From a virus (Duplodnaviria; Heunggongvirae; Uroviricota; Caudoviricetes): DNA of 40,620 nt. The DNA lies in IMG/VR virus record IMGVR_UViG_2563366828_000005; one strand, given 5' to 3'. The translations under genes were made by a program, and so were the position numbers. Of this stretch, positions 13,276 through 19,785 are shown piece by piece (the first letter of the stretch is position 1; each line of letters opens with the position of its first letter). Under the pieces are notes generated by a model. It made no database searches. It was not told where the DNA came from and was given only the letters and a program-made list of their open reading frames with translations.

Positions 13276-13632
13276 ATGCGTGATATGTATGAAGTAATGG
13301 ATCGTTGGGGAGCTTGGGCTGCTTCAGACAATAGCGGAGTGGACTGGCAGCCGATAGCGGCTGGTTTCAAGGGACTTTTACCTCATGGCAAAAAGTCACG
13401 GATTCAGTGTGATGATGACGAAGGCATCATGATAGACAGTTGTGTGGCTCGGTTGAGAAGGTATAAACCAGAGGAATATGAGCTCATCATCGCCCACTTT
13501 GTTATCGGTATCTCATTACGCACTATTGCGAAGAAGAGAAAATGCTCTGATGGCACAATTAGGAAGGAACTGCAAACTGCAATGGGGTTTGTTGACGGCT
13601 GTTTAGCAATGTTAGCTTATAGTATGGCATAA
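13276..13632 (+). CDS. Q: Late-gene antiterminator Q (phage 21/82 type)
   Basis: 118 aa from MRDMYEVMDRWGAWAASDNSGVDWQPIAAGFKGL, recalled as phage-21-type Q; GGAG 8 nt upstream. Confidence 0.75.
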   Translation: MRDMYEVMDRWGAWAASDNSGVDWQPIAAGFKGLLPHGKKSRIQCDDDEGIMIDSCVARLRRYKPEEYELIIAHFVIGISLRTIAKKRKCSDGTIRKELQTAMGFVDGCLAMLAYSMA

Positions 13633-14102
13633 AAAATAAAATAGATTTACTGCCGATTTTTCAAAAAAGACTGGGAACTGTTTATATCCAACGTAAATAA
13701 GGCCTCCATAAAACATGGCTGATGCGAGATATTTAACAGTTCTCATCCTTTTTTTAGCTTTATCAATCAAACCTGTAATGCTACTCTTAATACTATCTGC
13801 ATTATCTTTGATTTCTTTATTTTCTTCAAACTTTAAATACTTATCGAAAGCGGACTCCACTCGAGAACGTAAGTTGTCGAATGTTTCATTGAATATCTCA
13901 ATAGAAATGTAATTGACTTTTTTTATCATCCAAAGTCCTGCGATAATCAATATTGCCTCGGTTGTTTCATTAGCCTTCACTAAGCCACCAGCAGCTATTA
14001 ATGCACCGGGAATAGTCAATGCTTTTGTCTGATTAGATGATATGAATGGTGATGCTGCCAACTTACTGATTTAGTGTATGATGGTGTTTTTGAGGTGCTC
14101 CA

Positions 14103-14378
14103 GTGGCTTCTGTTTCTATCAGCTGTCCCTCCTGTTCAGCTACTGACGGGGTGGTGCGTAACGGCAAAAGCACCGCCGGACATCAGCGCTATCTCTGCTC
14201 TCACTGCCGTAAAACATGGCAACTGCAGTTCACTTACACCGCTTCTCAACCCGGTACGCACCAGAAAATCATTGATATGGCCATGAATGGCGTTGGATGC
14301 CGGGCAACCGCCCGCATTATGGGCGTTGGCCTCAACACGATTTTCCGCCATTTAAAAAACTCAGGCCGCAGTCGGTAA
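14103..14378 (+). CDS. insA: IS1 InsA
   Basis: 91-aa ORF with zinc-finger motif CPSC...CSHC, matches IS1 InsA. Confidence 0.95.
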
Positions 14379-14800
14379 CCTCGCGCATACAGCCGGGCAG
14401 TGACGTCATCGTCTGCGCGGAAATGGACGAACAGTGGGGATACGTCGGGGCTAAATCGCGCCAGCGCTGGCTGTTTTACGCGTATGACAGGCTCCGGAAG
14501 ACGGTTGTTGCGCACGTATTCGGTGAACGCACTCTGGCCACACTGGAGCGTCTTCTAAGCCTGCTGTCGGCCTTTGAGGTCGTGGTATGGATGACGGATG
14601 GCTGGCCGCTGTATGAATCCCGCCTGAAGGGAAAGCTGCACGTAATCAGCAAGCGTTACACTCAGCGAATTGAGCGGCATAACCTGAATCTGAGACAACA
14701 TCTGGCAAGGCTGGGACGGAAGTCACTGTCGTTCTCAAAATCGGTGGAGCTGCATGACAAGGTCATCGGGCATTATCTGAACATAAAACACTATCAGTAA
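14297..14800 (+). CDS. insB: IS1 InsB (normally expressed as InsAB' fusion via -1 frameshift)
   Basis: 167-aa ORF matching IS1 InsB, overlapping insA in the -1 frame. Confidence 0.9.
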
Positions 14801-15604
14801 GTTGGAGTCATTACCATATGAATTCGTTAATTTTACTCGTGAACTCAAGATTTTTCTCATCGAGTTCGTTAAGAATTTTATTTACAGAAAACCTCTTTGT
14901 GTAAATCTCATATAGTTCATCATATTTTTTCCTGACGAGTTCAGTAGAGTTAAGCAAGTCAAAGAAATTGAACGTACCATTTGCTTTAAATACTTCGTTT
15001 ATGGCTGAGCGTATAACGAGCTTGCGCTCGCTTTTGTGTAAATCATTGATTTTTATTGTGTCGAGAAGCTCCTTTATAATTTCATATTTAAGAGACGAGT
15101 TCGATAAGCGATTAATCTCGCTATATTGTAAAAAATGCGTGAGTTCGACTGTATAACTTTTGTCTTCATTGGTGAAAAATAAGACAGAGCAGTCACTGTT
15201 ATGATGATCAGCAATTAATGAAAGGATATCTTTCCACATAAAGAAAATATGGATTTTTTCGATGCTTTCATTCTTAGAAGTAGGGAGTATTAACGGCGTT
15301 CCGATGATATAATTTTTCGGAAGAGCGTTTTGGGTGTTTACTCTAGACCAAAAAGACTCAACATTCTCATAAATTATAGCGTCATCCCAAGATGAAGCTT
15401 GGCGATCTAGCCAAATTTCATTATTTTCGATGCAGGTTGTTGCCTTTTTATAACCTATAGATTGTAACAGTCTAATTATTTCAGAACTATTTACAATAAC
15501 AATGCTTTCTTCAAGACTTATGACAGTGTAGTAGCCCTCAACTCTGCTTGAGGCTCCGTTAATAATCTGCGCTAATCTTGATAAGTCATCAGCAATTGTC
15601 ATTA

Positions 15605-16780
15605 TTAGCTGTCTCTATATCTTTTGAGTTCATCATAATTTGCCTGACTCAATTTTATCACAATTTCGCATTTGTTGTCAGTGAGAATTACAGGCTTATT
15701 TGACTTTTCGTCTCCAATAGCTCCACGCATTATTTTCAACTTAAAATTATTGTCGTTATCTGCCACTTCAATTGTAAGCGCGCTTTCAGCTGCTTTAGGA
15801 GTTGGTTCAAATTGAGGGTCAATCTGGAAACCATTAAGATTAACAAAATCGACAAACGTTCCCTTACATTTGTGTGAATCAGTCAGGCATGAGTCAATTA
15901 TTTTTGAAATATCCTCTATCTTAACGGACTTATTTCCGTGTTTATCTTTTGATTTTTTTTCCAGTAAGGATTTAACTTCGTTGTCAATAGTATCACGCAG
16001 TACACGACCGAGTGAGTTTTTACTAGCAAAAATATCTATAGCACTGAATAATTGCTGAATGCTTCTTTTATTGTCCGAATCATGTCGGCAACCTAATGAG
16101 TCTTTGAAAAAATCGCTTTTAGATTTACCTTGCAAGAAATGTACATATGAGTCACCCTTGTTTTCTGGATAACTGGCTTCGAATAAAGTTAAATCGAACA
16201 TCGCAGCCTGCCGTAAGGCATCGGTATTAATTGGATTTAATCTTGTTGGGGTCAACTTATCCGAATCAAAGTCATAGGCGCTTTGTTTATCAACCATTAC
16301 GATTAGAAGTTTCCCCAAATCCTCTGGTTCGGTAGACTTATAGTGGATGAAAACAACGCTCCCCCCCTGAAGTTGGGCAACTCTCGATTCGTTATTAGCA
16401 TTATGTTTAAGCTTCTCTATTATAGCTCTAGATAAATCAATGAATTCATTATTTTTATTAATGTATTTTTTTAGGATCGTAGGAATGGATGAAGGGTTGT
16501 GATCTGAGTCTAGGAAGTTATGAAATTTGTTTTTTCGGCTAAATTTTTTCTCAATTCTGGTTATGAATTCAGATGTGACTTCATTTTTTAGATCCCAAAC
16601 TTCACCTAATCGATAATCAAATGCTCTTGAATCATTTTTTTCAAGATTTGCTGTTACAGCACCAATAGGAAAGTACGATTGTTTGCCCAGCACTACAACA
16701 TGAGGCGTGGCACCGCATTTATCGCAAGCTACAGTTGGGTCGTCAAGAACATTGCCACATTCTAAACAAGTTATATCCAT
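15605..16780 (-). CDS. Hypothetical 391-aa protein with N-terminal zinc ribbon; first gene of the two-gene cassette
   Basis: AT-rich ORF; CLECG...CDKCG at residues 5-22; stop is 2 nt from the start of the downstream IS1-disrupted gene. Confidence 0.6.
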   Translation of the reverse strand: MDITCLECGNVLDDPTVACDKCGATPHVVVLGKQSYFPIGAVTANLEKNDSRAFDYRLGEVWDLKNEVTSEFITRIEKKFSRKNKFHNFLDSDHNPSSIPTILKKYINKNNEFIDLSRAIIEKLKHNANNESRVAQLQGGSVVFIHYKSTEPEDLGKLLIVMVDKQSAYDFDSDKLTPTRLNPINTDALRQAAMFDLTLFEASYPENKGDSYVHFLQGKSKSDFFKDSLGCRHDSDNKRSIQQLFSAIDIFASKNSLGRVLRDTIDNEVKSLLEKKSKDKHGNKSVKIEDISKIIDSCLTDSHKCKGTFVDFVNLNGFQIDPQFEPTPKAAESALTIEVADNDNNFKLKIMRGAIGDEKSNKPVILTDNKCEIVIKLSQANYDELKRYRDS

Positions 16781-17071: not shown

Positions 17072-17398
17072 ATGCCTCATAACCCAAATACTTGGCTGGA
17101 GTTGGTCCAGAGCTGGTGGCGTGGAGACACACCGCTGGGCGCAGTGATTATGTCGATCGTTATGGCTGGCTTGCGCATTGCCTATTTTGGCGGTGGTGGT
17201 GGCTGGAAGAGAAAAACGCTCGAGATTTTGCTCTGTGGCGCTCTGACGCTGACCTTTGCATCCGCTCTTGAATATGTCGGATGGCCTAAATCGCTTTCTG
17301 TTGCCATTGGTGGTGGCGTGGGGCTGATCGGTGTCGATGCTATTCGTGGGGCTGCAATGCGAGTAATCGGTAACAAATTTGGTAGCTCGAAGGAGTAA
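17072..17398 (+). CDS. Holin (three predicted TM segments)
   Basis: 108-aa ORF directly upstream of the endolysin with three hydrophobic segments and a charged C-terminus. Confidence 0.6.
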   Translation: MPHNPNTWLELVQSWWRGDTPLGAVIMSIVMAGLRIAYFGGGGGWKRKTLEILLCGALTLTFASALEYVGWPKSLSVAIGGGVGLIGVDAIRGAAMRVIGNKFGSSKE

Positions 17399-17401
17399 TT
17401 T

Positions 17402-17878
17402 ATGCAGGCACTAAATTCCCAGCGTAAAGCTTTCCTGGATATGGTGGCATGGTCAGAAGGAACGGATAACGGGCGACAACCGACACGTAACCACGGTTAT
17501 GATGTTATTGTTGGTGGCGAACTGTTCACTGATTACTCCGATCACCCTCGCAAACTTGTCACGCTAAACCCCAAACTCAAATCAACAGCTGCCGGACGTT
17601 ACCAGCTTCTTTCACGCTGGTGGGATGCTTACCGTAAACAGCTTGGCCTGAAAGATTTTTCTCCAGAAAGCCAGGACGCTGTAGCTCTGCAGCAGATTAA
17701 AGAGCGTGGTGCTTTACCGATGATTGACCGCGGCAGTATTCGTCAGGCAATCGACCGTTGCAGCAATATCTGGGCGTCGTTACCTGGTGCAGGTTACGGT
17801 CAGTATGAACATAAAATCGGTGACCTGATTGCCCGATTTAAAAAAGCTGGTGGGGTAGTAAATGAAGCTGAGATATAA
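17402..17878 (+). CDS. R: Endolysin, lambda R-type lytic transglycosylase
   Basis: 158-aa product with QRKAFLDMVAWSEGTDNGRQPTRNHGYDVIVGGELFTDYSDHPRKLVTLNPKLKST, near-identical to lambda R as recalled. Confidence 0.9.
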   Translation: MQALNSQRKAFLDMVAWSEGTDNGRQPTRNHGYDVIVGGELFTDYSDHPRKLVTLNPKLKSTAAGRYQLLSRWWDAYRKQLGLKDFSPESQDAVALQQIKERGALPMIDRGSIRQAIDRCSNIWASLPGAGYGQYEHKIGDLIARFKKAGGVVNEAEI

Positions 17879-18254
17879 GCTGGTTATTGTTGCCTTCGTT
17901 GTTAGCGTCATTGGTTCCTTCATCTGGTCTGCTGGACATTACTACAGCAAATATCAGCACGAAAAGGAGCGTGCTGATGAGGCTGTACGAAATGCTGAAT
18001 CAGCAACTGCCATTACCCGTAACGTTCTGCAATCACTGCAAATCATCAATACAGTTATAGAGGCTAACCAGCATGCAAAACAGCAGATCGCACTGGAGTC
18101 ACAGAGAACCCAGGAAGATATCAAAGTGGCTGTTGCGGATGATGATTGTGCTTCAAGTCATGTGCCTGCTGCCGCTGCTGACCGGTTGCGGAAGTACGCG
18201 AACAGTTTACGTGCCGGTTCCGGCGGTACCGCTGCCAACAAGCCTGACCACTGA
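17862..18254 (+). CDS. Spanin inner-membrane subunit (Rz-like)
   Basis: 130-aa ORF with N-terminal TM segment then coiled-coil-like region, overlapping the endolysin stop. Confidence 0.55.
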   Translation: MKLRYKLVIVAFVVSVIGSFIWSAGHYYSKYQHEKERADEAVRNAESATAITRNVLQSLQIINTVIEANQHAKQQIALESQRTQEDIKVAVADDDCASSHVPAAAADRLRKYANSLRAGSGGTAANKPDH

Positions 18255-18396
18255 AACGCCCCAGCCAGTCATTCCCGACCCGCTGACCTATGGGGCCAGT
18301 CTGGATCTGAATGTGAGCCTGCTTTCGGCGCTGGGCCAGTGCAACATCGACAAGGCCAGTATCAGGAAGATAGAAACGTCACGCAACTCACAGTAG
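18139..18396 (+). CDS. Spanin outer-membrane lipoprotein (Rz1-like), overlapped arrangement
   Basis: Alternate frame inside and beyond Rz: MMIVLQVMCLLPLLTGCGS lipobox followed by a Pro-rich mature region. Confidence 0.55.
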   Translation: MMIVLQVMCLLPLLTGCGSTRTVYVPVPAVPLPTSLTTETPQPVIPDPLTYGASLDLNVSLLSALGQCNIDKASIRKIETSRNSQ

Positions 18397-18434
18397 CCAT
18401 TACAAAGCTCATCTGCGGGTGGGCTTTGTAATGG
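18397..18434. terminator. Bidirectional hairpin between convergent Rz1 and the 101-aa gene
   Basis: 12-bp perfect inverted repeat CCATTACAAAGC / GCTTTGTAATGG with a 14-nt loop. Confidence 0.5.
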
Positions 18435-18435
18435 C

Positions 18436-18741
18436 TTATTCGTAGTTGTCACCAGGGAAGTATTCCTGAAACTTTGATTTTGGGAGCTGGGTTTTCGCGA
18501 AGTTCGCAAGCCTTCCTCTTGTAAGCATGTAGTCACACCCACCTTCTTGTTTGAGAAGGTCACCAGCTAATGTCCGATACACAACGTCACTTCGCAAAAT
18601 TTCAATGGTGGAATTCCTGATGAGAAATGTTTCACACATCGGGCATCTAATTAACCAAGCGGTATCACGGTTCTGCCAGGTCGCATCTGAATTGCAAGCC
18701 GGGCAGCATTTCTGATCTTCTTGTCCTATGACCATTGTCAT
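18436..18741 (-). CDS. Hypothetical 101-aa zinc-ribbon protein (moron in the bor-equivalent position)
   Basis: Opposite-strand ORF between lysis cassette and HNH; CCPAC and CPMC cysteine pairs. Confidence 0.45.
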   Translation of the reverse strand: MTMVIGQEDQKCCPACNSDATWQNRDTAWLIRCPMCETFLIRNSTIEILRSDVVYRTLAGDLLKQEGGCDYMLTRGRLANFAKTQLPKSKFQEYFPGDNYE

Positions 18742-18814
18742 GCTCTCGCATAGTGAAGGAATTTTCAGATTAACTCATTTTCAGACGCATCGTAATGGCT
18801 TAAGGAAACAATTA

Positions 18815-19165
18815 ATGCCACCACGTACACCAAAAGCCTGCCGCGTTCGCGGTTGCCGCCATACCACAACTGACCCGTCAGGCTATTGCGAAAGCCACAA
18901 AAGCGAAGGCTGGAAGCAATACAAACCAGGCCTGTCACGTCATCAGCGCGGTTACGGTTCGAAGTGGGATACCATCCGTGAACGTGTGCTGAAGCGTGAC
19001 AAAGGCCTGTGTCAGTTATGTCTGCGTTCTGGTGTGGTGCGTGAGGCGAAAACCGTTGACCACATCATCCCTAAAGCGCATGGCGGCACTGATGCTGACA
19101 GTAATCTGCAGAGTCTGTGCTGGCCGTGCCATAAGGCGAAGACGGCCCGTGAACGGTTAAAGTGA
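18815..19165 (+). CDS. HNH endonuclease (terminase-associated)
   Basis: 116 aa from MPPRTPKACRV with AAGGA upstream; CxxC...HIIPKAHGG...CWPCH HNH motif; directly upstream of the terminase genes. Confidence 0.8.
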   Translation: MPPRTPKACRVRGCRHTTTDPSGYCESHKSEGWKQYKPGLSRHQRGYGSKWDTIRERVLKRDKGLCQLCLRSGVVREAKTVDHIIPKAHGGTDADSNLQSLCWPCHKAKTARERLK

Positions 19166-19290
19166 TAATAATTCTCAACTGTCTGAGGGGAGGGGCGGGT
19201 CAAATCCCTGTGACCTGACGTCTTCCGGACTGCCCGCCCCATCGTTTTTTTATACCCGCGAAAAATGAAATTTAACCAGGAGTGCCGCAT

Positions 19291-19785
19291 ATGGCTGGAA
19301 CGGCGGGGCGTTCCGGGCGTCGCCCCAAGCCAACGGCGCGCAAGGCGCTGGCCGGAAACCCCGGCAAGCGAGCCCTGAATAAAGATGAACCTGTTTTTAC
19401 GCCCATCAAAGGTGTTGAGCCACCGGAGTGGTTCGCTGAAGAAGATCTCCCTCTCGCTACGATCATGTGGCAACTGACAACTAAAGAACTCTGCGGTCAG
19501 GGCCTGCTGTGCGTGACTGACCTCGCGGTGCTTGAGCGGTGGTGCGTGGCCTACGAGTTCTGGCGACGTGCCGTGAAAAATATTGCCAGACAGGGCAACA
19601 CCATCACCGGTGCAATGGGCGGTATGGTCAAAAATCCGGAGCTGACCGCCAAAAAAGAACAGGAGTCCGAGATGAGCAGTACGGGGGCAATGCTCGGACT
19701 CGACCCCAGCAGCCGCCAGCGTCTGATTGGCCTGGCGGGGCAGAAGAAAACCACTAACCCGTTTCTGAAAATCATCGAATCATGA
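19291..19785 (+). CDS. Terminase small subunit (P27 family-like)
   Basis: 164 aa from [20 protein letters not shown] 8 nt upstream; precedes and overlaps the large subunit. Confidence 0.7.

What the first reader, a model, noticed from the sequence alone, without database searches (positions are those of the whole stretch)
18397..18741. Opposite-strand 101-aa zinc-ribbon gene between the lysis cassette and the packaging genes
Occupies the lambda bor position, is insulated from the convergent Rz1 by a 12-bp perfect hairpin, and encodes a small protein with two Cys pairs (CCPAC, CPMC). Small zinc-ribbon morons in this position are commonly lysogen-expressed and can be regulators, antitoxin-like proteins or anti-defence factors.
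Basis: partly seen in the sequence, partly recalled or inferred. Interest (0 to 1): 0.4.

Follow-up and report, generated by a model that had tools for sequence, protein, structure and literature searches.

The report
Unannotated zinc-ribbon moron gene in prophage
A small gene that standard annotation misses sits backwards between the lysis and DNA-packaging genes of an E. coli prophage; it is a real, conserved, self-contained add-on ("moron") encoding a zinc-binding protein of a tiny orphan family whose function is still unknown.

Summary
A minus-strand ORF at 18436-18741 encodes a protein with CPAC and CPMC cysteine pairs, and a hairpin separates it from the convergent Rz1 gene. Two corrections apply:
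- The real start is almost certainly the ATG at 18735, giving 99 aa (MVIGQ...).
- The perfect hairpin arms are 14 bp, not 12.

The gene is real. About 24 homologue clusters (39-99% identity) keep the four zinc cysteines, and dN/dS is 0.07-0.30. NCBI's pipeline annotates nothing there in any of the 30 listed E. coli genomes, out of 32 that carry near-identical DNA.

It is a movable cassette of about 420 bp. Related prophages have an empty site with 26 nt between Rz1 and HNH. In more than 10 different phage backbones the gene always lies antisense between the lysis and terminase genes.

The protein is predicted (pLDDT 83) as a C4 zinc ribbon plus a four-helix domain. It has no Pfam, PHROG, NCBIfam or PADLOC membership, no structural neighbour, and no copy in 50,697 sequenced phages. 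Its ribbon resembles Lar/RalR only below threshold. Near-neutral pI argues against DNA binding.

My best guess, not shown, is a protein-binding factor in phage-host conflict, expressed independently of late transcription. It is an ordinary kind of element with an uncharacterised protein. Interest is modest.

The parts
18436..18735 (-). Coding sequence of the 99-aa zinc-ribbon protein (MVIGQ...DNYE; stop TAA at 18436-18438). Residues 6-40 form a four-stranded C4 zinc ribbon using C11, C14, C31 and C34 (99-aa numbering). Residues 41-92 form four helices.
   Evidence: ORF. Homologues all start MVIG. dN/dS 0.07-0.30. AlphaFold2 pLDDT 82.9, pTM 0.65.
18736..18741 (-). Probably 5' UTR, not translated.
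   Evidence: Absent from the homologues. GAGAG at 18743-18747 is only 2 nt from this ATG but 8-12 nt from the ATG at 18735.
18736..18810 (-). Conserved 5' leader and putative promoter region of the cassette. It holds a Shine-Dalgarno-like GAGAG at 18743-18747 and a candidate -10 GAAAAT at 18777-18782. The -35 is poor in this copy (TTGTTA in relatives L005 and L007).
   Evidence: Homology among loci from different phages starts about 75 nt upstream of the ATG. PWM scan. The consensus scan found no promoter, so promoter status is inferred.
18395..18436 (.). Hairpin between the convergent stop codons of Rz1 (TAG 18394-18396) and the moron (TAA 18436-18438). It has 14-bp perfect arms and a 14-nt loop. 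On plus-strand RNA it extends to 19 pairs with a UGCG loop (-34.5 kcal/mol). No U-tract follows on either strand.
   Evidence: A hairpin at the same place in 8 loci has 5 of 12 pairs showing compensatory changes. Its core also occurs in HK022 and mEp235 without the gene.
18787..18802 (+). Second, direct copy (GCATCGTAATGGCTTA) of the hairpin's right arm (GCTTTGTAATGGCTTA, 18423-18438). The two copies bracket the gene and mark the right edge of the inserted block.
   Evidence: 16 nt, 88% identity, spacing 364. The 11-mer GTAATGGCTTA occurs only at these two places in the window. Homology to empty-site prophages resumes at about 18803. The same flanking repeat is seen in L002, L005 and L007.
18385..18802 (.). 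Whole block of about 420 bp that is present here but absent from empty-site relatives: the alternative Rz1 3' end, the hairpin, the gene, the leader and the repeat.
   Evidence: Alignment with E. coli KE51 and NADC1036 prophages, where Rz1 stop and HNH ATG are 26 nt apart.

Best explanation
Shown:
- This is a genuine protein-coding moron that RefSeq annotation does not call.
- It is a self-contained cassette of about 420 bp: leader with putative promoter, a 99-aa gene, and a 3' hairpin, bracketed by a 16-nt direct repeat of the hairpin arm.
- It sits antisense to the late operon at the lysis/packaging junction of an SfV-like E. coli prophage.
- Its product belongs to a very small orphan family found only in enterobacterial lambdoid prophages.

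Predicted:
- The product is a soluble cytoplasmic protein with an N-terminal C4 zinc ribbon packed against a four-helix domain.

Inferred, not shown:
- Being antisense to the late operon, it is transcribed from its own weak promoter, independently of Q-dependent late transcription. That means expression in the lysogen and/or straight after DNA entry.
- Plus-strand late transcription reading through it would run antisense to its mRNA, which could lower its expression during lytic growth. This step is inference only.
- Given near-neutral charge, invariant surface-type residues (SDATW.N.D; DLLK) and no enzymatic motif, it most likely acts by binding a protein partner in phage-host or phage-phage conflict. 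That could be anti-restriction/anti-defence of the Lar type, or exclusion of competitors. DNA binding is less likely.
For: - Gene reality: homologues at 39-99% identity keep C11/C14/C31/C34 and about 15 other columns invariant. dN/dS is 0.07-0.13 in the window's clade and 0.07-0.30 in other clade pairs, except one near-identical pair (L026/L029, 6 differences, 0.55). Synonymous excess has P 1e-8 to 1e-13. All other frames are closed.
- Not annotated: no feature under the match in any of the 30 listed RefSeq genomes, out of 32 that carry it.
- Cassette: inter-locus homology is limited to about 75 nt upstream through the hairpin. The hairpin covaries. Direct repeat. Empty sites in KE51 and NADC1036. 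SfI and SfV share the flanks but lack the gene.
- Fixed position: always the lone opposite-strand gene between lysis genes and terS/ParB/HNH, in backbones with HK97-like, P22/MuF-like, lambda Nu1/GpA-like and other packaging modules.
- Fold: pLDDT 82.9, pTM 0.65, all five models 76-83.
- Protein-binding inference: family pI 4.9-8.2. All 23 members give weak hits to the Lar zinc ribbon (best E 1.3e-5).
- GC is 45% against 50% for the window.
Against: - No expression data exist. The consensus scan finds no sigma-70 promoter or canonical terminator in 18200-19300, and the window's candidate promoter has a poor -35.
- The hairpin lacks a U-tract, so termination is unproven.
- The functional inference rests on weak similarity. 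Lar_restr_allev scores are below the gathering cut-off (17.6 vs 28.6 bits) and cover only the ribbon. hhalign against a Lar/RalR alignment gives 25% probability.
- There are no structural neighbours (best Foldseek E 0.22 to 2.7), no PADLOC hit and no conserved partner gene.
- The gene is rare: 32 of 5,426 E. coli genomes, none of 50,697 phage records. A frameshifted copy exists (P0006). It is therefore dispensable.
Confidence: 0.45

Rival explanations
1. Nucleic-acid-binding regulator. The zinc ribbon plus a helix-turn-helix-like C-terminal domain, an architecture like IS1 InsA or MqsA, binds DNA or RNA. It would control its own promoter, late read-through, or packaging initiation at the adjacent cos/pac region.
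For: The fixed position next to terS/cos in all backbones could mean a position-linked function. The C-terminal half weakly matches tandem repeats of an archaeal protein (P0009, E 3.5e-9 summed over 6 stretches), and P0009 has a near-threshold HTH_32 hit (32.6 vs 33.7 bits). Motifs such as LTRGRLANFAK resemble a recognition helix (my reading of the sequence).
Against: Family pI is 4.9-8.2, untypical for a small DNA binder. hhalign gives 3% against P0009 and 1.8% against IS1 InsA. The C-terminal domain alone has no Pfam HTH hit even at E<=10. The flanking packaging genes and cos/pac types differ between loci, so no common DNA target is evident.
Confidence: 0.2
2. RalR/Lar-type toxin. Like the Rac prophage Lar protein, now named RalR and reported as a non-specific DNase kept in check by an sRNA, the zinc ribbon is a small toxic nuclease whose expression is limited by antisense RNA. 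Here that RNA would be the late transcript or an unrecognised sRNA.
For: Lar_restr_allev is the only family that all 23 members hit. K-12 Lar is annotated as endodeoxyribonuclease toxin RalR with the antisense sRNA RalA (PMC4041452, seen). The gene is antisense to the late operon and has a long, stable 3' hairpin.
Against: Similarity is confined to about 30 ribbon positions and is sub-threshold. The Lar C-terminal E-A-L-x-R-W-N-K-R helix is not aligned. This protein has an extra 60-aa domain. The leader is less conserved than the coding region, which does not fit a base-pairing antitoxin site. No Rfam sRNA was found.
Confidence: 0.1
3. Not a functional gene. It would be a chance antisense ORF, or a decaying remnant carried along in a mosaic junction, and the automatic annotation is right to skip it.
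For: PGAP calls nothing there. No family membership. It is rare, with one frameshifted copy (P0006). No consensus promoter.
Against: The ORF stays intact with the same length and start in about 24 clusters down to 39% identity. dN/dS is 0.07-0.30 in four comparisons across clades. Third-position differences dominate. A confident compact fold is predicted.
Confidence: 0.03

Closest known systems
Phage lambda bor (moron at the Rz-cos junction)
   Same: Same genomic niche and orientation. It is a single small gene transcribed opposite to the late operon, between the Rz/Rz1 lysis genes and the cos/terminase region, and it is absent from close relatives. This is the classic moron arrangement (position of bor is from my own knowledge; position here).
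   Different: No sequence relationship. There is no Lambda_Bor Pfam hit at E<=1. There is no signal peptide or lipobox, because the N-terminus is MVIGQEDQK. Bor is an outer-membrane lipoprotein, whereas this is a predicted soluble zinc-ribbon protein.
Lar / RalR of the Rac prophage (Pfam PF14354 Lar_restr_allev; TIGR03655)
   Same: Small prophage-encoded protein with a CPxCG...CxxC zinc ribbon. All 23 family members give weak hits to the first ~30 positions of PF14354 (best E 1.3e-5). PHROG 'Lar-like' hits reach E 0.003-0.026.
   Different: Scores are below the curated cut-offs: 17.6 vs 28.6 bits for PF14354, and 14 vs 39.6 for TIGR03655 with a relative. Profile-profile probability is only 25% over 35 columns. 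The Lar C-terminal EAL-RWNKR helix is not aligned, and a 60-aa helical domain is added. The genomic location differs too: Lar lies in the early recET region.
Zinc-finger plus HTH small regulators (IS1 InsA, MqsA antitoxin)
   Same: Overall layout: an N-terminal C4 zinc module followed by a short helical domain within about 90-130 aa.
   Different: hhalign against InsA gives 1.8%. There is no MqsA/YgiT Pfam hit. The protein is neutral to acidic rather than basic. No partner toxin gene is present.

Membership tests
Moron (extra phage gene with own transcription signals, as defined for HK97/HK022 by Hendrix and colleagues) | Present in some phages and absent from otherwise homologous relatives, at a gene boundary | tested here: met
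   KE51 and NADC1036 prophages have 26 nt between Rz1 and HNH where the window has about 420 bp more. SfI and SfV share the flanks without the gene.
Moron (extra phage gene with own transcription signals, as defined for HK97/HK022 by Hendrix and colleagues) | Own terminator or stem-loop downstream of the gene | tested here: met
   A hairpin lies directly after the stop codon with z = -6.9. It is conserved with compensatory changes in 8 loci. No U-tract follows, so termination itself is not shown.
Moron (extra phage gene with own transcription signals, as defined for HK97/HK022 by Hendrix and colleagues) | Own promoter upstream of the gene | tested here: inconclusive
   A conserved leader of about 75 nt travels with the gene. 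The candidate is TTGTTA-17-GAA(A/T)AT in L005 and L007, but the -35 is poor in the window. The consensus scan found none.
Moron (extra phage gene with own transcription signals, as defined for HK97/HK022 by Hendrix and colleagues) | Expressed from the repressed prophage | not testable with these tools
   Needs RNA-seq or proteomics of a lysogen.
Lar / RalR restriction-alleviation family (PF14354, TIGR03655) | Scores at or above the curated family cut-off | tested here: not met
   PF14354 gives 17.6 bits against a cut-off of 28.6 for the window protein. All 23 members hit it at E<=0.01, with best E 1.3e-5. TIGR03655 gives 14 bits against 39.6 for P0008, and no hit for the window protein.
Lar / RalR restriction-alleviation family (PF14354, TIGR03655) | Full-length single-domain match, including the C-terminal helix (EAL.RWNKR in RalR) | tested here: not met
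   Only profile positions 4-33 of 58 are matched. hhalign aligns 35 ribbon columns at 25% probability.
Lar / RalR restriction-alleviation family (PF14354, TIGR03655) | Alleviates type I restriction, or has DNase toxicity | not testable with these tools
   Needs EcoKI restriction assays and toxicity assays.
Lambda Bor lipoprotein family | Sequence match, signal peptide and lipobox | tested here: not met
   No Bor hit in the Pfam scan at E<=1. The N-terminus MVIGQEDQKCC has no hydrophobic signal.
Known anti-phage defence proteins (PADLOC-DB v2) | Match to any defence-system protein model | tested here: not met
   Only LmuB at E 0.02-0.05 and about 10 bits, which is noise.
C4 zinc ribbon (structural class) | Two CxxC knuckles about 16 residues apart on a four-stranded beta ribbon, with invariant cysteines | tested here: met
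   C11-x2-C14-x16-C31-x2/3-C34 is invariant in 23 sequences. The model has strands 6-10, 17-23, 26-31 and 35-40. Zinc binding itself was not tested.

The most novel reading that the evidence does not exclude
The family is a new, position-locked 'first-in' counter-defence or takeover factor. The gene always lies just upstream of the packaging start. Here it is about 0.5-0.8 kb from the predicted right cos end at about 19240. That puts it on the last-packaged, first-ejected end of the virion DNA, with its promoter entering before the gene. It could therefore be made before any phage regulatory cascade starts, like T7 ocr or plasmid leading-region anti-restriction genes, and neutralise a host restriction or defence protein through its zinc ribbon. 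An equally novel alternative is a single-gene prophage exclusion factor with an undescribed fold.
Probability: 0.2. Interest if true: 0.6.

Novelty: new member of a known kind. Interest (0 to 1): 0.3.

Why it matters
- Annotation gap: the gene is conserved and under selection, yet it is left out of current RefSeq annotation of E. coli prophages. This is a concrete case of small accessory genes being missed at module junctions.
- Experimental candidate: cargo genes at the lysis/terminase junction (lambda bor is the textbook case) often alter host phenotype or phage-phage competition. This family has a confident but unmatched predicted fold and an unusually strict position. That makes it a cheap, well-defined target for anti-restriction, anti-defence or exclusion screens.
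- Ceiling: if it proves to have no phenotype, it remains one more hypothetical moron.

Tried and rejected
- Family libraries: Pfam, PHROGs, NCBIfam and PADLOC scans of the protein and of 23 relatives gave only sub-threshold zinc-ribbon noise. The C-terminal domain alone gave nothing.
- Structure searches: two Foldseek runs against PDB and one against BFVD found nothing better than E 0.22. A profile search of PDB sequences gave only a generic CPxC ribbon at E 0.18.
- Wider homology: exhaustive HMMER over 1.84 billion representatives returned four hits: two full-length relatives not seen before (P0007, P0008), the frameshifted copy P0006, and one dubious archaeal repeat protein.
- Collections: the GTDB representative genomes gave no hit. 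tblastn against 50,697 phage records gave no hit.
- Specific comparisons by hhalign: Lar/RalR single sequence and alignment gave 21-25%. YdaE gave 0.2%. IS1 InsA gave 1.8%. All were rejected as membership.
- RNA families: Rfam at gathering and permissive thresholds found no known RNA in the hairpin or leader.
- Transcription signals: the consensus promoter/terminator scan found none.
- Literature: searches for a described gene of this kind found nothing relevant.
- Partner gene: I looked for a conserved neighbour, such as a toxin or second component. Neighbours differ in every backbone.

Full report
**1. What is in the sequence**

The window carries an SfV/e14-like lambdoid prophage. It has a lambdoid early region, a Q antiterminator, a lysis cassette, an HK97-type head and a contractile tail, and in E. 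coli CFSAN061770 it is integrated next to ybhC.

The late-strand genes around the finding are:
- holin, 17072-17398
- GH24 endolysin, 17402-17878
- Rz, 17862-18254
- embedded Rz1/LysC, ending at TAG 18394-18396
- HNH endonuclease, 18815-19165
- P27-type small terminase, large terminase and portal

An inverted repeat lies exactly between the two convergent stop codons. Its perfect arms are 14 nt (18395-18408 / 18423-18436), not 12. As plus-strand RNA it extends through G-U pairs to 19 pairs with a UGCG loop, at -34.5 kcal/mol and z = -7.9. As minus-strand RNA it folds at -24.3 kcal/mol, z = -6.9. Neither strand has a U-tract after it, and the simple terminator scan does not call it.

**2. Is it a gene?**

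An antisense ORF of this size is not remarkable on its own. The ORF list around it contains many spurious ones. NCBI's pipeline annotates nothing here in any of the 30 listed E. coli genomes, out of 32 complete genomes carrying DNA at least 99.7% identical. Conservation settles the question.

- The first protein search found six clusters among 5.8 billion sequences.
- An exhaustive HMMER profile search of 1.84 billion representatives added two full-length relatives, P0007 and P0008.
- A viral-contig scan returned 18 loci.
- A profile search found 24 clusters in total, at 39-99% identity.

All relatives begin MVIG. This identifies the second ATG (18735) as the start, giving 99 aa, with GAGAG 8-12 nt upstream.

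C11, C14, C31 and C34 (99-aa numbering; CPxC...CxxC) and about 11 other columns are invariant. The extra Cys of 'CC' is not.

Nei-Gojobori dN/dS is 0.07-0.13 among the window and three relatives. In other clade pairs it is 0.07-0.30, except one near-identical pair with only six differences (0.55). Differences concentrate at third positions, and the synonymous excess has binomial P of 1e-8 to 1e-13. The other five frames are closed in every copy.

One database entry (P0006) is a frameshifted copy. The ORF is therefore a real gene under purifying selection.

**3. Anatomy of the element**

I aligned the gene with 250 nt of flank from phages that are otherwise unrelated in this region. Homology starts about 75 nt upstream of the ATG and ends just after the 3' hairpin.

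The hairpin accompanies the gene in eight divergent loci. The stem sequence differs between them but pairing is kept, and 5 of 12 pairs show compensatory changes.

The right hairpin arm (GCTTTGTAATGGCTTA, 18423-18438) is repeated directly on the other side of the gene (GCATCGTAATGGCTTA, 18787-18802). The 11-mer core occurs nowhere else in the window. The same bracket is seen in L002, L005 and L007.

Among 917 E. coli genomes that share part of the flanks, only 32 carry the gene. In KE51 and NADC1036 the Rz1 stop and the HNH start are 26 nt apart. Homology to the window is lost near 18385 and resumes at about 18803, the end of the repeat.

Phages SfI and SfV share the Rz1 and/or HNH flanks but have other cargo or none. 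HK022 and mEp235 carry the hairpin core behind a different late gene.

The element is thus a movable block of about 420 bp, which is what defines a moron. GC is 45% against 50% for the window.

A promoter is not demonstrated. The best conserved candidate is TTGTTA-17 nt-GAA(A/T)AT, ending 41 nt before the ATG in L005 and L007. In the window the -10 (GAAAAT, 18777-18782) is kept but the -35 is poor. The consensus scan found nothing.

**4. Position**

In every locus with enough context the gene is the lone opposite-strand gene between the lysis genes and the first packaging gene. The packaging modules differ:
- HK97/P27-type with HNH, in the window
- P22/Mu-F-type, in L002-L005
- ParB-like plus Terminase_6C, in L010-L013 and L032
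- lambda Nu1/GpA-type, in L014 and L026-L029
- other types, in L022, L025 and L031

No neighbouring gene is shared across these loci, so there is no evidence of a partner gene.

The right end of the SfI genome record aligns to window position 19240. If that record is cos-delimited, the gene lies 0.5-0.8 kb from the right cohesive end.

**5. The protein**

AlphaFold2 with the 23-sequence alignment gives pLDDT 82.9 and pTM 0.65, with all five models at 76-83. The model has a four-stranded zinc ribbon (residues 6-40) followed by helices 41-49, 51-63, 73-83 and 86-92. The 5-sequence model agreed.

Foldseek finds no neighbour in PDB or BFVD; the best E-values are 0.22 to 2.7. A PDB sequence-profile search finds only a generic ribbon at E 0.18.

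No Pfam, PHROG, NCBIfam or PADLOC model is matched above threshold. The C-terminal domain alone matches nothing.

The one recurrent signal is Lar_restr_allev (PF14354):
- All 23 members hit it at E<=0.01 (best 1.3e-5), but only over profile positions 4-33, the ribbon.
- The window protein scores 17.6 bits against a cut-off of 28.6.
- K-12 Lar is now annotated as the type I toxin RalR, a DNase (PMC4041452, seen).
- Profile-profile comparison with a RalR alignment gives 25% probability over 35 columns and does not include the RalR C-terminal helix.

I therefore do not file the protein as a Lar family member.

The match of the C-terminal half to tandem repeats in an archaeal 869-aa protein is not confirmed by hhalign, which gives 3%.

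The family's pI is 4.9-8.2, which does not fit a small DNA-binding regulator. There is no signal peptide or membrane segment.

No sequenced phage in the 50,697-record collection encodes a relative, and no GTDB representative genome does. The only names sources give are 'hypothetical protein' from E. coli and Enterobacter hormaechei.

**6. Most likely mechanism**

*Shown:* a selected gene in a mobile cassette at a fixed junction, with a predicted zinc ribbon plus helical fold.

*Inferred:* the gene is antisense to the Q-dependent late operon and carries its own conserved leader. It is therefore probably transcribed on its own, in the lysogen and/or right after DNA entry. Late read-through from the plus strand would run antisense to its mRNA, which could reduce its expression during lytic growth; I did not test this.

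With no catalytic motif, neutral charge and invariant exposed-type residues (SDATW.N.D in the ribbon; DLLK, LT and FPG in the helical part), binding a protein partner is the most economical mode of action. A role in phage-host or phage-phage conflict is the most probable setting.

I put about 0.45 on this overall picture. That combines near-certainty for 'real moron gene' with roughly one in three for the functional part.

Rivals:
- nucleic-acid-binding regulator, 0.2
- RalR-like toxin, 0.1
- non-functional ORF, 0.03

**7. A more novel reading not excluded**

Genes just upstream of the packaging start lie on the last-packaged end of the virion DNA. In lambda (my own knowledge) that end is the first to enter the cell. 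A cassette with its promoter nearer the end than the gene would be the earliest expressible gene. This suits an anti-restriction or anti-defence factor, by analogy with T7 ocr or plasmid leading-region genes. This is inference only, and I give it about 0.2.

**8. Verdict**

The moron and zinc-ribbon interpretation is supported. The functional suggestions remain untested, and the Lar-like lead fails the membership tests. The element is an ordinary kind (a moron at the bor position) carrying an uncharacterised, rare protein family. Interest is 0.3.

Noticed in passing
window 13612-16780 (minus strand), IS1 at about 14103-14800: Between Q and the holin lies a two-gene low-GC cargo matching the NCBIfam DS-1 anti-phage system. 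Gene 15605-16780 is 'DS1_1 nucleoid-associated anti-phage protein' (451 bits, cut-off 330), with an N-terminal zinc ribbon and a YejK/NA37 domain. The second gene (404 aa in other strains) is split by an IS1 insertion into 14811-15602 and 13612-14061, so the system is probably inactive here. Only E. coli S1-ZIM-01-A shares this insertion. The DefensePredictor paper (PMC13092281) lists a YejK nucleoid-associated domain among its newly validated defence domains.
   Followed up: partly
window about 19166-19260: The right end of the phage SfI genome record aligns to window 19240 (...GGACTGCCCGCCCC), 75 nt after the HNH stop. It lies in a G-rich region with the inverted motifs GGGGCGGG / CCCGCCCC. 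This is probably the cos site of the prophage.
   Followed up: partly
window 17862-18254 and locus L001 3466-3735: RefSeq marks the Rz (DUF2570) gene of the identical prophage as an incomplete pseudogene missing its C-terminus. The window has an intact 130-aa ORF with a DUF2570 match over residues 9-110. This looks like an annotation artefact of the embedded Rz1 gene.
   Followed up: no
window 18392-18433; L009 (HK022) 1501-1542; L008 (mEp235): The core of the hairpin (CCATTACAAAGCTCATCTGCGGGTGGGCTT) is 93% identical in HK022, mEp235, mEpX2, HK446 and mEp506. There it follows a different late gene (HK97 p61-like) and no zinc-ribbon gene is present. It may be a shared junction or recombination sequence of lambdoid late regions.
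   Followed up: partly
L037 5001-7610 (protein P0009): An 869-aa protein from a metagenomic contig has archaeal-looking neighbours (IF5A, PAC2, Roadblock). It contains about 10 tandem ~60-aa repeats ending ...AKEKLTPEEYQKRFP, which weakly resemble the C-terminal half of the moron protein. hhalign does not confirm the relationship.
   Followed up: partly
L014 14083-15771: A lambda-like prophage carrying a relative of the gene also encodes a colicin (PF01024) and a colicin immunity protein within the phage.
   Followed up: no
L035 (phage SfI) 1333-1536: At the equivalent Rz-HNH junction, SfI has an unannotated plus-strand ORF for a small hydrophobic protein (MKILWVISLLCSAIGF...), followed by a terminator-like hairpin. 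This is different cargo at the same hotspot.
   Followed up: no
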